A DNA stretch of 34,186 bases from a virus (IMGVR_UViG_3300021590_000003:1-34186), one strand, 5' to 3'; positions 1,216-22,018 are shown, counted from the first letter of the stretch. Notes: a model not told the origin generated them from the letters alone. Made by a program: numbers and translations.

Positions 1216-2063
1216 GTTCGATATCCTTCATTTTCCTTAAATAATATGAATATAATCCTTTTGATACAGAACGTATTCTTCTTTTTGCTTCTGCTGCTAC
1301 ATATTGGGCAATCAAAGGCATTGCTATTTTCTTATTTCTAAATTGTTCATGTCCTATTTCATCTAAAACTTTCTGTATTTCATTCATAACCTCTGCCTCT
1401 GGTAGTTCTGGATATTAGGAGCATCTCTATCTCTGTCAATTTCGATATTTTTTTCGTGTGGTACGTCTAACCGGTCTTTAAAGAAATAGGCTTTACCGCT
1501 ATCATAAGACTTGAAGACTACACCTTCTCGATTTTCTTTTTTTTTTTTGCGCGGTCAAGCATTTTTTCTATTTGTTTTTCTAATTTCTCAATAGTAGAAT
1601 ATGAAGAGACTGCCCATAGTTTAACAATCGGTAGTTTCCATTGATAACAAAATTGATAGACTCTTGTGTAATTCCACCAACCTCCATTTATATCATAAAT
1701 ATCAAATACTGCAATATCATCTTTTTCATGATATTCTATACGAGAAGGACTTTTACCTTTTTGTAATAATTCAAAAAATACTATTATATCATGATTCCAT
1801 TGATATTTTTCTGTATAAAGAGCTGTTCTTAGAATAGAATCATATCCAGTATTTTCAATTGACTTTAACAAATCATCACTTGCTGGTATTTTATTTCTAC
1901 TTCCAAATTGAAGATTATCATTTTCATCTATGAAACAACGTATGTTAGATCCATCACGCTTCTCCTCGAAATATATTAACTTACCAAGTAATTCTCTACC
2001 GCCATAAGGAGACTCTCTTAAATAGCCTAATTTTGGATATTTTATAACCTCTTCAATTCTCAT
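1208..2063 (-). CDS. ATP-dependent RNA ligase-like nucleotidyltransferase (Rnl2-like), split by two frameshifts
   Basis: Motif I EEKRDGSNIR lies in the tracked ORF 1518..2063. After the T-run near 1535-1548 another frame reads NREGVVFKSYDSGKAYFFK (motifs IV/V). After a second shift near 1415 it continues PELPEAEVMNEIQKVLDEIG..IEHA* to 1208. Confidence 0.75.
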
Positions 2064-21072: not shown

Positions 21073-21291
21073 CTATTCTCCATTTCTATCATCCAATCTG
21101 TCTTCATGATATGCAGTAATGATGTCTAAAATGCGATCAAATATAACTCTTTGTCCTTCTAAATATCCTTCATGATAAAACTTTAATAAATCCAATTCTG
21201 TATTTTCTTGTAACCGACGACGCTCACCGAGTTCCTCCTTTATGCGATGTTCAAGTTCCTTTAATTCTTTTATTAATTTTCCTTCTTTCAT
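21073..21291 (-). CDS. Hypothetical helical protein
   Basis: GGAGGT ribosome-binding site directly after the tRNA-like gene. Confidence 0.65.
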   Translation of the reverse strand: MKEGKLIKELKELEHRIKEELGERRRLQENTELDLLKFYHEGYLEGQRVIFDRILDIITAYHEDRLDDRNGE

Positions 21292-21315
21292 ATTTTTTTA
21301 TACCTCCTATAAGGA

Positions 21316-21460
21316 TGGATGGGGCAGGAGTCGAACCTGCATTCCCGGACAGAATTTGATGATCGGACTTTCCATCCTCCTACCAGAAGGTTTTCACCCT
21401 ATCTCTTTAATAAAAAAGAACACGAACAATGTCCGGATCCTACCGTTGGACGACCCATCC
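21316..21460 (-). tRNA. tRNA or tRNA-like RNA with an 80-nt insert between the anticodon-stem strands; identity uncertain (nominal TGT)
   Basis: Acceptor GGATGGG/CCCATCC plus A73; D arm GTCC-AACGGTA-GGAT; anticodon stem CGGAC/GTCCG; T arm GCAGG-TTCGACT-CCTGC; no encoded CCA; TATA-like TTTTTATAT near 21490-21498. Confidence 0.8.
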
Positions 21461-21508
21461 CAGATACTTTTCTTAACGCCTTTATGGACATATAAAAATA
21501 TAAAAAAA

Positions 21509-22018
21509 TCATATTTGAATGCAATTTGAAATATATTTCTCTATTAACTCTCGATGTTCATTCTTGTCGCATGTTGTAAATTTCCTGTGTATATCTCTAT
21601 CGATGAATACTACATGTACATCATCAATATGGTGTGCTTCTGTATTGGCTCTCTTTTCATTCAGTGGTTGAAATCCATATCCTCTTTGCCATGCACTATA
21701 CTTTGAAAAAATATAAGGGGGTTTAATTACCCCCATTTGTATAAGACTAATCAATTCACTAAAGCTTCCCCGCTTTCTCTGTCTTCTCCTTCTTTTCTTC
21801 AGGGCGGAACTACCCAACCCAGGGCAAGTTCTTCTACACCCGTTCTCTTGAACGGGAAGTTCAGGTGAGGAGGCTTTCACCATACTTCCCTTGCCCTTGG
21901 TGGACTCTTGATTTCCACCTTCCTCCAATAGAGATCCTATTGTCACAGTTTTTTTATTACGATTCATTCGATTAGTGTTACTCATTCCTTTACTGGTCTT
22001 TCTGTTATCCATTGCCAT
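21509..22018 (-). CDS. Basic protein with a C-terminal HNH-like motif
   Basis: RRRRQRKR patch; RGYGFQPLNE..EAHHIDDVHVVFIDRDIH. Confidence 0.5.
   Translation of the reverse strand: MAMDNRKTSKGMSNTNRMNRNKKTVTIGSLLEEGGNQESTKGKGSMVKASSPELPVQENGCRRTCPGLGSSALKKRRRRQRKRGSFSELISLIQMGVIKPPYIFSKYSAWQRGYGFQPLNEKRANTEAHHIDDVHVVFIDRDIHRKFTTCDKNEHRELIEKYISNCIQI

What the first reader, a model, noticed from the sequence alone, without database searches (positions are those of the whole stretch)
21316..21460. tRNA scaffold with an 80-nt multi-hairpin domain replacing the anticodon loop, and a built-in alternative fold
Seen: acceptor, D and T arms pair fully and there is a dedicated TATA box. The 80 nt between the anticodon-stem strands (21351-21430) contain three hairpins, including AGGGT-GAAA-ACCTT and GGAT-GGAAA-GTCC. 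A second GTCCG(ATC) at 21361-21368 can pair with GATC-CGGAC and exclude the canonical stem. Splicing at 37/38 would give the loop A-U-UGU-U-U (A32, U37) with G2:C71. Known: that is a poor decoding loop, C2:G71 is a ThrRS identity element, and EndA needs a bulge-helix-bulge; here the central helix ATTG/AAAT has a mismatch. Inference: not an ordinary intron-containing tRNA but a tRNA mimic, such as a decoy for anticodon nucleases or splicing enzymes, a ribosome-binding regulator, or a switchable processing substrate for the ribosome-binding site and gene directly downstream.
Basis: partly seen in the sequence, partly recalled or inferred. Interest (0 to 1): 0.8.

Follow-up and report, generated by a model that had tools for sequence, protein, structure and literature searches.

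The report
Viral tRNA mimic, variable anticodon arm
This is a gene of an uncultured deep-sea-vent virus for a tRNA-shaped RNA that keeps the whole tRNA body but has no working anticodon, so it most likely serves as a processing signal or protein-binding small RNA, and some relatives carry it right behind a viral Ro60 gene.

Summary
On the minus strand, c[21316..21460] folds into a complete tRNA cloverleaf with 80 nt between the anticodon-stem strands.

The element belongs to a family of at least 40 sequence variants in hydrothermal-vent viral contigs. Acceptor, D, anticodon and T stems are kept by compensatory changes.

The distal anticodon arm is free to evolve. In relatives it is a 5-nt loop, 17-18 nt, 42, 63, or 75-85 nt.
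- Positions 33-36 take 11 forms.
- U33 is often absent and position 37 is always U.
- No member has a conserved bulge-helix-bulge splice motif.

So this is not an ordinary intron-bearing decoder tRNA. The proposed alternative fold and two of the three hairpins are not conserved.

The element always lies 8-10 nt before the ribosome-binding site of the next gene. In several sister lineages it lies directly behind a viral Ro60 gene, together with a second tRNA-like RNA.

My best reading is a tRNA-like punctuation element cut by RNase P and RNase Z, whose product may be a Y-RNA-like small RNA.

The scan probably met this family before on other DNA (e1-5804362), read there as a structured RNA inside a gene.

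The parts
21316..21460 (-). Whole tRNA-shaped RNA gene (145 nt, no encoded CCA)
   Evidence: Sequence; ARAGORN -i; MFE cloverleaf. Family members score above the Rfam tRNA threshold: 42.2, 36.7 and 30.4 bits.
21431..21460 (-). 5' half of the scaffold: acceptor 5' strand, U8-C9, D arm, C26, anticodon-stem 5' strand CGGAC
   Evidence: Pair statistics over 36 variants and compensatory changes.
21351..21430 (-). 80-nt distal anticodon-arm appendage. It starts with the invariant A32, then variable 33-36, then invariant U37-C38, and it ends with AUUC-U.
   Evidence: Entropy profile. Homologous across classes A, B and W. The same place holds 5 to 85 nt in relatives.
21402..21419 (-). Hairpin HP1 (UCUUUUU-UAUU-AAAGAGA)
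   Evidence: MFE fold. Kept in W and B classes with UCUCU/AGAGA and UUUCU/AGAAA versions.
21376..21390 (-). Conserved hairpin SL2 (CCUUC-UGGUA-GGAGG) flanked by purine-rich GGAA-type stretches
   Evidence: 5 of 5 pairs in 29 of 29 A/B/W variants, with four 5'-strand versions (five strand combinations): CCUCU/AGAGG, CCUCC/GGAGG, CCUUC/GAAGG, CCCCU/AGGGG.
21316..21350 (-). 3' half of the scaffold: anticodon-stem 3' strand GUCCG, variable loop GGAAU, T arm, acceptor 3' strand, discriminator A
21303..21308 (-). Shine-Dalgarno AGGAGG, starting 8 nt after the discriminator
   Evidence: Conserved trailer AUCCUyrUAGGAGG in all variants.
21079..21291 (-). First ORF of the downstream operon (70 aa, MKEGKLIKELKELEH...)
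   Evidence: The start codon lies 20-25 nt after the element in all loci. Four different first genes occur in relatives.
21461..21497 (-). Conserved 25-nt leader (ATAAAGGCGTTAAGAAAAGTATCTG) and the AT-rich TATA-like TTTTATAT at -37..-30
   Evidence: Conserved in the upstream flanks of the variants. No sigma-70-like site on this strand. Function is inferred.
21509..22018 (-). Upstream neighbour: a 169-aa ORF with an Arg-rich stretch and an HNH-like end. Its GC-rich, hairpin-rich 5' half (about 21790-21960) shares a 25-nt motif with the appendage.
   Evidence: Translation; conserved upstream block GGUGGAAAUC in 28 of the 31 loci checked (the other three are copies of the G002 contig, where the Ro60 cassette intervenes); local alignment beats all but 1-2 of 300 shuffles.

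Best explanation
The element is a gene for a tRNA-shaped RNA that does not decode, that is, a tRNA mimic. It belongs to an uncultured tailed virus from deep-sea hydrothermal vents; the host is probably a euryarchaeon, but this is not settled.

Selection keeps the parts of a tRNA that tRNA-end-processing and tRNA-binding proteins read:
- a 7-bp acceptor stem with discriminator A
- the D and T arms with the elbow nucleotides
- a 5-6-bp anticodon stem

What hangs on the anticodon stem is a free-evolving appendage, not an anticodon loop plus intron.

The most likely mechanism has inferred steps. The element is transcribed with the operon that follows it. Host RNase P and RNase Z cut at its two ends. 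This frees the downstream mRNA with its Shine-Dalgarno site about 8 nt from the new 5' end, and in Ro60-bearing relatives it also separates that mRNA from the Ro60 message. The cut releases a stable tRNA-shaped small RNA, probably with CCA added.

That small RNA displays a virus-specific hairpin module: SL2 with GGAA-rich flanks in this window. It may additionally act as a Y-RNA-like partner of Ro60 or of another RNA-binding protein.
For: SHOWN
1. Scaffold under selection. Over 21 pairs and 36 variants, only 2 cells are unpaired. Pairs that change on both sides: acceptor 3:70, 5:68, 7:66 and D 13:22. In distant members also acceptor 4:69 (UA to CG), anticodon stem 29:41 (GC to AU) and 31:39 (CG to GC). 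G-U pairs make sense only on this strand.
2. tRNA-likeness. Rfam RF00005 gives 42.2 bits for the short-insert class, 36.7 for the insert-less L068 and 30.4 for an A-class member; the threshold is 29.
3. No anticodon constraint. A32, U37 and C38 are invariant while 33-36 carry 0.9-1.7 bits of entropy. There are eleven 7-mers, C33 in 16 of 36 variants, and never a purine at 37. ARAGORN -i names 10 different amino-acid identities (11 anticodons) across the family.
4. Same-locus relatives have a 5-nt loop GCAAG (L068), 17-18 nt (L064, L070), 42, 63 or 75-85 nt at this place.
5. No conserved splice motif. The canonical central helix has 2-3 of 4 pairs in the 36 variants (4 of 4 only in the 18-nt L064, not in L070) and does not covary. 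No second-step motif appears after removing the internal candidate.
6. Fixed position. The start codon of the next gene is 20-25 nt after the element in all loci, whichever of four genes comes first, and the trailer AUCCUyrUAGGAGG is conserved.
7. No stop-free frame crosses the element in the window.

INFERRED: cleavage by RNase P and RNase Z, CCA addition, and stability of the product. This inference is by analogy with YrlA, which is cut by RNase P and receives CCA (PMC4201824).
Against: - No RNA data exist, so neither processing nor absence of splicing is shown.
- A32, U37-C38 and the 3' UC-Y are invariant in the 36 variants of the first set; A32 also holds in the four distant members, U37-C38 and UC-Y do not all. 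The processing model does not explain this conservation, and it could mark an unrecognised splice or protein-binding site.
- The insert sits at the commonest archaeal intron site. Its length variation, including a deletion derivative (class S), is what introns do.
- The virus encodes an Rnl2-like RNA ligase (PF09414), a family that has been suggested to act on viral tRNA introns (PMC8651126).
- An internal motif with strict BHB geometry exists in 12 of 13 W/B members, so part of the appendage might be excised.
- SL2 is under selection in 29 variants, so the appendage is not mere filler there.
Confidence: 0.5

Rival explanations
1. Y-RNA-like partner of Ro60 as the main function. The tRNA-shaped RNA, like bacterial and phage YrlA, binds or tethers a Ro60 ring protein (viral or host) for RNA quality control or repair. 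The appendage on the anticodon stem would be the protein-binding or effector module.
For: - In G002 the element starts 24 nt after the stop of a 509-aa TROVE + vWA_Ro60 protein, on the same strand.
- The same order (HNH-like ORF, tRNA-like RNA no. 1, Ro60, this element) recurs in the P0036 group (16 contigs) and in L070 (P0042, where RNA no. 1 was not found); L069 (P0033) ends inside Ro60, so the element there is unseen.
- Chen et al. 2014 found tRNA-mimicking Y RNAs within 4 kb of Ro60 on the same strand in 254 bacteria and 22 phages (PMC4201824).
- Ro60-like clusters are largely viral.
- The window also encodes an RNA ligase.
Against: - About 40 loci, including the window and G001, carry the element without Ro60 next to it. 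No TROVE match exists in the 34-kb window or in G001, though both are only 42-44% complete.
- tRNA-like RNA no. 1, not this element, is the one lost together with Ro60.
- No conserved GNCGAAN0-1G or GGUCCGA motif is present; GUCCGA occurs only in class W.
- No Rfam Y_RNA or YrlA hit at E up to 5.
- The topology differs from YrlA: here the ends are at the acceptor stem.
Confidence: 0.2
2. Genuine intron-containing decoder tRNA. In the window this would be tRNA-Thr(UGU) with an 80-nt intron at 37/38. A splicing endonuclease with relaxed specificity would remove the intron, and the viral RNA ligase may help to seal the halves.
For: - The body is a perfect tRNA.
- The insert is at the canonical intron site.
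- Intron-like length variation with conserved ends.
- The 18-nt member L064 forms a clean bulge-helix-loop: AGAG/CUCU plus a UCU bulge.
- RNA ligase PF09414 is encoded.
- The gene content leans archaeal: RadB-like and Hef/Xpf-like proteins, and a RecA-like protein that matches only Methanocaldococcus fervens tailed virus 1.
Against: - The central helix is never complete in the 36 variants and never covaries. Euryarchaeal endonucleases are known, from general knowledge, to need a strict BHB.
- The spliced loop would be A32-N33-NNN-U37-Y38, with C or G at 33 in many members and never a purine at 37.
- One body would carry anticodons for Thr, Gln, Arg, Met, Leu, Val and Ser.
- L068 has no 7-nt loop with U33 at all.
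- L070 breaks the helix seen in L064.
- No splicing endonuclease gene was found in the 55-kb relative G002.
Confidence: 0.12
3. Anti-defence decoy. The tRNA body titrates or misleads a host tRNA-targeting nuclease or sensor, and the variable loop tracks host specificity.
For: - Rapid change at 33-36 next to invariant flanks.
- RNA ligase in the genome.
- Phage tRNAs that counter anticodon nucleases are known (general knowledge).
Against: - The loop does not resemble any normal anticodon loop (A32, U37), so it is a poor mimic of a nuclease target.
- Within class A the variation at 33-36 is no higher than at other unpaired columns.
- Members with a 5-nt loop have nothing to offer an anticodon nuclease.
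- No defence or counter-defence gene is linked to the element.
Confidence: 0.07
4. Selfish or protective insertion. The neighbouring free-standing HNH-like nuclease cuts the uninterrupted tRNA(-like) gene, and the insertion destroys its site. This would be 'collaborative homing', as described for cyanophage psbA.
For: - The HNH-like ORF is always immediately upstream of an interrupted tRNA-like gene: this element, or RNA no. 1 in Ro60-bearing relatives.
- The insert core shares a 25-nt motif with the RNA region inside that ORF.
Against: - The nuclease nature of the ORF is unconfirmed: no Pfam, PHROG, NCBIfam or PDB match.
- L068 has the ORF next to an uninterrupted element.
- The hypothesis does not explain why the scaffold is conserved.
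Confidence: 0.05
5. Decaying pseudo-tRNA or attachment-site remnant.
For: Odd anticodon loop; the window copy gets no Rfam hit at gathering threshold.
Against: - Compensatory changes appear in all four stems across about 40 variants.
- Both halves are present, whereas an attP core holds only one part of a tRNA.
- No host tRNA with this 3' half was found in 185,579 species genomes. In 241 million metagenome records every hit but one chance match is this viral element.
Confidence: 0.03

Closest known systems
YrlA-type bacterial and phage Y RNAs (tRNA-mimicking partners of Ro60/Rsr; Chen et al. 2014, PMC4201824)
   Same: - Non-decoding RNA with tRNA-like D arm, T arm and acceptor stem, including an R15-Y48 pair.
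- An extra module is attached where the anticodon arm would be.
- Encoded next to Ro60 on the same strand (in relatives of this window).
- Present in viruses.
- At least one YrlA is cut by RNase P and receives CCA.
   Different: - Here the RNA ends are at the acceptor stem, as in a real tRNA. In YrlA the ends form the Ro60-binding stem and the acceptor-like stem is closed by a loop.
- No GNCGAAN0-1G motif and no Rfam match.
- Most family members, the window included, have no Ro60 gene beside them.
tRNA-like processing signals: plant-mitochondrial t-elements, the MALAT1 mascRNA, and the tRNA-like parts of murid herpesvirus 68 TMERs (general knowledge, not tested here)
   Same: - A tRNA-shaped, non-aminoacylated element placed at an mRNA or ncRNA boundary.
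- RNase P and RNase Z define the neighbouring RNA ends.
- The anticodon region is dispensable.
   Different: - Those are eukaryotic or organellar.
- This family keeps a complete four-arm cloverleaf with all elbow contacts.
- It has an expandable anticodon arm.
- It sits at a fixed 8-10 nt before a Shine-Dalgarno site.
Archaeal tRNA genes with bulge-helix-bulge introns at 37/38
   Same: - Normal tRNA body.
- Insertion beginning in the anticodon loop.
- Variable insert length.
- No encoded CCA.
- Probably an archaeal virus.
   Different: - No conserved hBHBh' or relaxed motif.
- The loop left after removal lacks U33 in many members and always lacks a purine at 37.
- The 'anticodon' is not conserved.
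- The insert-less relative has a 5-nt loop.
tmRNA
   Same: A tRNA-like acceptor and T domain with a large domain inserted between the halves. G3-U70 plus A73 occur in 14 of 36 variants.
   Different: - Has full D and anticodon stems.
- G3-U70 is not conserved: A3-U70 in 21 variants and G3-C70 in 1.
- No tag reading frame.
- Rfam tmRNA gives only 12.5 bits on one relative.

Membership tests
tRNA (Rfam RF00005) | Cloverleaf with 7-bp acceptor stem, D, anticodon and T stems, and conserved elbow nucleotides (U8, A14, G18-G19, U54-U55-C56, A58) | tested here: met
   Sequence. 21 pairs kept over 36 variants. Relatives score 42.2, 36.7 and 30.4 bits against a threshold of 29. The window copy reaches only 19.2 bits, in a local alignment, because of the 80-nt insertion.
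tRNA (decoding) | 7-nt anticodon loop with U33, a purine at 37, and an anticodon conserved within the isoacceptor | tested here: not met
   A32-N-NNN-U37-C38 in eleven versions, with C33 in 16 of 36. 5-nt loop in L068; G33 or C33 in L064 and L070.
Archaeal BHB-intron tRNA | Two 3-nt bulges separated by a 4-bp helix at the exon-intron junctions (hBHBh', or relaxed HBh' / hBH / BHL) | tested here: not met
   At the canonical place there are 2-3 of 4 central pairs and no compensation. Only the 18-nt L064 forms a clean BHL, and L070 does not keep it.
Archaeal BHB-intron tRNA | Intron-less alleles or spliced products that restore a normal tRNA | tested here: not met
   The only insert-less relative (L068) has the pentaloop GCAAG. 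No second-step motif appears after the internal candidate is removed.
Archaeal BHB-intron tRNA | Removal of the insert in RNA | not testable with these tools
   Needs RNA reads from infected cells or an in-vitro endonuclease assay.
Y RNA / YrlA | Encoded within about 4 kb of a Ro60 (TROVE) gene on the same strand | tested here: inconclusive
   Met in relatives G002, L064-L067 and L070 (L069 ends inside Ro60). Not met in the window or G001, which have no TROVE match but are 42-44% complete.
Y RNA / YrlA | Ro60-binding motif GNCGAAN0-1G (bacterial) or GGUCCGA (metazoan) | tested here: not met
   No conserved match in the alignment. GUCCGA occurs only in class W.
Y RNA / YrlA | Match to the Rfam Y RNA or YrlA covariance models | tested here: not met
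   No hit at E up to 5 or up to 1.
Y RNA / YrlA | Physical binding to Ro60 | not testable with these tools
   The complex tool takes proteins only.
tRNA-like processing element (t-element type) | tRNA-like fold placed at a fixed distance from a neighbouring RNA's functional end | tested here: met
   The start codon is 20-25 nt and the SD about 8 nt after the discriminator in all loci, with four different first genes.
tRNA-like processing element (t-element type) | Cleavage by RNase P and RNase Z in vivo | not testable with these tools
   Needs 5'/3' end mapping.
tmRNA | Conserved G3-U70 alanine identity and an internal tag reading frame | tested here: not met
   G3-U70 in 14, A3-U70 in 21 and G3-C70 in 1 of 36 variants. 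The frames differ between classes (manual reading).

The most novel reading that the evidence does not exclude
These vent viruses carry a previously undescribed RNA system. It consists of two tRNA-shaped, non-decoding RNAs with interchangeable hairpin modules: the same CCUCY-loop-RGAGG-UG hairpin is grafted into the anticodon loop of one RNA and between positions 26 and 27 of the other. In this reading they work with a virus-encoded Ro60 ring protein and an Arg-rich HNH-like protein whose own gene holds a related structured RNA. That would be a Y-RNA-like RNA surveillance or repair system in what is probably an archaeal virus. The window's element would be the member that persists after Ro60 is lost.
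Probability: 0.2. Interest if true: 0.8.

Novelty: new variant of a known kind. Interest (0 to 1): 0.6.

Why it matters
Virus-encoded tRNAs are usually read as codon-usage helpers or as countermeasures against tRNA-cutting defences. This family has the tRNA body under clear selection and a demonstrably dispensable anticodon, so it is a natural example of a virus using the tRNA shape for something other than decoding.

It resembles the laboratory 'tRNA scaffold' trick, in which an RNA module is grafted onto the anticodon stem so that the cell processes and stabilises it.

Ro60 with Y RNAs is known from animals, about 5% of bacteria and some phages. The recurrent placement of this element behind a viral Ro60 gene would extend tRNA-mimicking Y-like RNAs to hyperthermophile-associated, possibly archaeal, viruses.

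There is also a practical point. Gene callers read through the element in some relatives (L021), and tRNA finders give ten different identities for it.

Tried and rejected
- ARAGORN default and Rfam at gathering threshold give nothing in the window.
- Megablast and blastn against 50,697 phage records find no match for the window or the element.
- Two genome-contig scans (the 24-mer of the 3' half; the NrdD protein) find nothing, so neither a host tRNA twin nor a host was identified.
- The protein atlas on NrdD and on Ro60 gives no host domain.
- C/D-box, K-turn, hammerhead and uORF readings of the insert were tried by eye and rejected. The motifs are absent or not conserved, and the short frames differ between classes.
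- Antisense target: no reverse-complement match of 11 nt or more to the insert elsewhere in the window.
- Partner for the variable positions 33-36: only isolated, non-contiguous column matches.
- Nested (two-step) splicing: no second motif appears after the internal 19-nt candidate is removed. That internal BHB-like motif is conserved in 12 of 13 W/B members, but 28% of shuffled inserts give such a hit and it competes with a continuous hairpin register. I therefore do not claim it is cut.
- CRISPR-repeat mimicry (UGGAAAU-type tails) could not be tested, because no host genomes were reachable and the literature search for the repeat was uninformative.
- No splicing-endonuclease family match in G002.
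- Sequencing runs: no RNA holder listed, so expression, ends and splicing could not be examined.
- Contig depths are not interpretable as abundance.
- The weak collinear matches between the insert and the spacer upstream of Ro60 in G002 (E 0.16-2.5) were not pursued.
- The fold of the HNH-like ORF was not predicted.

Full report
WHAT IS THERE

The feature lies on the minus strand. c[21316..21460] reads as a complete tRNA body:
- acceptor GGAUGGG
- UC
- D arm GUCC-AACGGUA-GGAU
- C26
- anticodon stem 5' strand CGGAC
- 80 nt
- anticodon stem 3' strand GUCCG
- variable loop GGAAU
- T arm GCAGG-UUCGACU-CCUGC
- acceptor 3' strand CCCAUCC
- discriminator A, no encoded CCA

Tool results on the window copy:
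- ARAGORN without introns and Rfam at gathering threshold report nothing.
- ARAGORN with introns calls a tRNA at exactly these coordinates, but with an arbitrary 'Asn(GUU)' reading.
- Rfam's tRNA model gives only a 19.2-bit local match.
- All sequence details in the finding are correct, including the second GUCCGAUC and the ATTG/AAAT mismatch.

An independent 12-kb contig (L023) is identical over the element. All 13 W/B relatives read CAAAU. Two 121-nt contigs from two runs cover 21331-21451 without a difference.

CONTEXT

The window is itself a 34-kb IMG/VR virus record, about 42% complete. It encodes:
- NrdD, dCTP deaminase, PyrE
- a ClpP-like head protease and YopX
- a PrimPol, a RadB/RecA-like ATPase, an Mre11-like phosphoesterase
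- a Hef/Xpf-like nuclease and an Rnl2-type RNA ligase

The RecA-like protein matches only Methanocaldococcus fervens tailed virus 1 among 50,697 phage records. The runs that hold the sequence are almost all hydrothermal-vent metagenomes. I take the host to be a vent euryarchaeon, but this is not proven, and some genes (YopX, Ro60 in relatives) are commoner in bacterial phages. If the host were bacterial, protein-dependent splicing would be excluded outright.

THE FAMILY

One 20-mer of the 3' half found the element in two other IMG/VR contigs and in 49 metagenome contigs from about 23 assemblies. These give 36 distinct full-length variants. Four more distant members were reached through homologues of the upstream ORF.

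The scaffold is under selection:
- Over 21 base pairs and 36 variants, only two cells fail to pair.
- Acceptor 3:70, 5:68 and 7:66 and D-stem 13:22 change on both sides.
- In the distant members, acceptor 4:69 (UA to CG), 7:66 (GC to AU), anticodon-stem 29:41 (GC to AU) and 31:39 (CG to GC) do so too.
- Frequent G-U pairs fit only this strand, so the selection acts on the RNA.
- Members with shorter inserts pass Rfam's tRNA threshold of 29 bits, with 42.2, 36.7 and 30.4 bits.

THE ANTICODON END IS NOT AN ANTICODON

Directly after the stem every one of the 36 variants has A, then four variable bases (0.9-1.7 bits each), then U-C. There are eleven different 7-mers. Read as a loop this is A32-N33-NNN-U37-Y38:
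- U33 is replaced by C in 16 variants.
- Position 37 is never a purine.
- The 'anticodon' would spell Thr, Gln, Arg, Met, Leu, Val or Ser on one and the same body.

ARAGORN -i gives ten identities over the family.

What follows the stem comes in homologous but very different forms:
- 75-85 nt in classes A, W and B, alignable over their whole length
- a 42-nt deletion derivative, class S
- a 63-nt AU-rich form, L063
- 17-18 nt in L064 and L070
- in L068 nothing but a 5-nt loop GCAAG on a 6-bp stem

L068 still shows fresh compensatory changes in the acceptor and anticodon stems, so it is a working member, not a wreck.

SPLICING SIGNAL

I scanned all members for the archaeal bulge-helix-bulge geometry.
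- At the canonical place the central helix has 2-3 of 4 pairs (4/4 only in the 18-nt L064). Changes at 33-35 are never compensated on the 3' side.
- The clean bulge-helix-loop of L064 is not kept in L070.
- An internal motif with strict geometry would excise 19 nt in the window and is present in 12 of 13 W/B members. However, 28% of shuffled inserts give such a hit, it competes with a continuous hairpin, and its removal leaves no second motif and no anticodon loop.
- G002 encodes no splicing endonuclease.

An ordinary intron-containing decoder tRNA is therefore unlikely.

THE APPENDAGE

Relatives conserve a different hairpin, CCUYY-loop-RRAGG (window 21376-21390). It forms 5 of 5 pairs in 29 of 29 A/B/W variants, with four 5'-strand versions, and is flanked by AUGGAAG and UGGAAAUC. 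In the window it competes with AGGGU-GAAA-ACCUU. The proposed alternative fold depends on GUCCGAUC, which only the four W-class variants have.

A similar hairpin-plus-AGAGGUG motif occurs in two other places:
- In the 49-nt extra arm of a second tRNA-like RNA in relatives, where it covaries (CUUCU/AGAGG versus CCUCC/GGAGG).
- In the structured, GC-rich 5' half of the upstream ORF. The local alignment is beaten by 1-2 of 300 shuffles, and the block GGUGGAAAUC is present about 455 nt upstream in 28 of the 31 loci checked, the other three being copies of the Ro60-bearing G002 contig.

POSITION

The element is always followed by AUCCUyrUAGGAGG and a start codon 20-25 nt after the discriminator. 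This holds although four different genes can come first, as a result of deletions in the operon. In the window all three frames across the element contain stops. In some relatives a frame stays open through it. That probably explains the earlier scan note e1-5804362, which described a structured RNA 'inside' a nuclease-like gene.

RO60

In G002 a 509-aa TROVE + vWA_Ro60 protein ends 24 nt before the element. In the P0036 group (16 contigs), in L069 and in L070, Ro60 again follows the HNH-like ORF. The full order HNH-like ORF, tRNA-like RNA no. 1, Ro60, this element was seen in G002 and in L064-L067. L069 ends inside Ro60, and in L070 RNA no. 1 was not found. RNA no. 1 is a tRNA body with a 49-nt arm inserted at 26/27 and a variable 'anticodon loop' (UUGUUAA, AUUGGGG or AUUUAGG).

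This is the arrangement described for YrlA, the tRNA-mimicking Y RNA of bacteria and phages (PMC4201824). Three points speak against a strict Ro60 dependence of this element:
- About 40 loci, the window included, have the element without Ro60 beside it.
- RNA no. 1, not this element, is the one that disappears together with Ro60.
- No Ro60-binding motif or Rfam Y-RNA match was found.

VERDICT

The element is a non-decoding tRNA mimic. I put this at about 0.8.

Its best-supported role (0.5) is a tRNA-like punctuation element. RNase P and RNase Z would cut it out, which sets the 5' end of the downstream mRNA next to its ribosome-binding site and yields a stable tRNA-shaped small RNA carrying a virus-specific module.

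A Y-RNA-like function with Ro60 is the main rival (0.2) and is compatible with the first. A true spliced decoder tRNA gets 0.12. All processing steps are inferred, because no RNA data were available.

Noticed in passing
L006:3495-3618 (G002); L064:2998-3119; L069:697-818: A second tRNA-like RNA lies immediately after the HNH-like ORF and upstream of Ro60. It has a good tRNA body (45.9 bits to Rfam tRNA in L064) with a 49-nt hairpin arm inserted between positions 26 and 27. The hairpin covaries (CUUCU/AGAGG versus CCUCC/GGAGG), and the 'anticodon loop' differs between relatives (UUGUUAA, AUUGGGG, AUUUAGG). It was found only in loci that also carry Ro60, so it is the better Y-RNA candidate.
   Followed up: partly
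L061:7076-8605 (-) = L006:3802-5328; L064:3215-4735; L070:751-2514: A virus-encoded Ro60 orthologue (TROVE + vWA_Ro60, 506-587 aa) occurs in several sister lineages of this vent virus group. None was found in the window or in G001, which are 42-44% complete.
   Followed up: partly
window about 21790-21960 (-), inside ORF 21509-22018: The 5' half of the 169-aa upstream ORF is GC-rich and holds several conserved hairpins, for example GGUGGA..UCCACC, GGGAAGU..ACUUCCC and GGUGA..UCACC (the last with a GGUGG/CCAUC variant). It shares a roughly 25-nt motif with the insert of the tRNA-like element. The protein has an Arg-rich KKRRRRQRKRG stretch and an HNH-like end, but no Pfam, PHROG, NCBIfam or PDB match.
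   Followed up: partly
L006:3619-3801 (G002) and L064:3120-3214: The spacer between tRNA-like RNA no. 1 and Ro60 folds into a long imperfect hairpin, GGAGGUG.GAGGAGAG...CUCUCCUC...CCUCC (MFE -71 kcal/mol over 194 nt). It ends in the Ro60 ribosome-binding site and may be a further structured RNA or a leader.
   Followed up: no
window 1518-2063 (-): A 181-aa Rnl2/T4-type RNA ligase domain protein (PF09414, 2.2e-09) sits in the nucleotide-metabolism block. It is of interest next to tRNA-like RNAs and, in relatives, Ro60.
   Followed up: no
window 21412-21417 (-): U-run of the insert: The insert holds a run of 6 U just after a small CGGAC-AUU-GUUCG hairpin, which the scan flags as terminator-like. 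The run length varies from 4 to 8 among relatives, so it is probably not a conserved terminator.
   Followed up: partly
L029:550-695 and L054:990-1129: Mosaic members: L029 joins a B-type 5' insert part to an A-type 3' part, and L054 joins a W/B-type scaffold to an A-type insert. Recombination therefore shuffles modules within the element.
   Followed up: no
L001:5411-5424 and other 'type II' leaders: Many variants have 7 extra bases (UGUGGGU or UAUGGGU) just before the acceptor stem, which looks like a partial duplication of its 5' strand. Most of these variants also carry G3-U70 (L012, L025 and L027 carry the extra bases with A3-U70).
   Followed up: no
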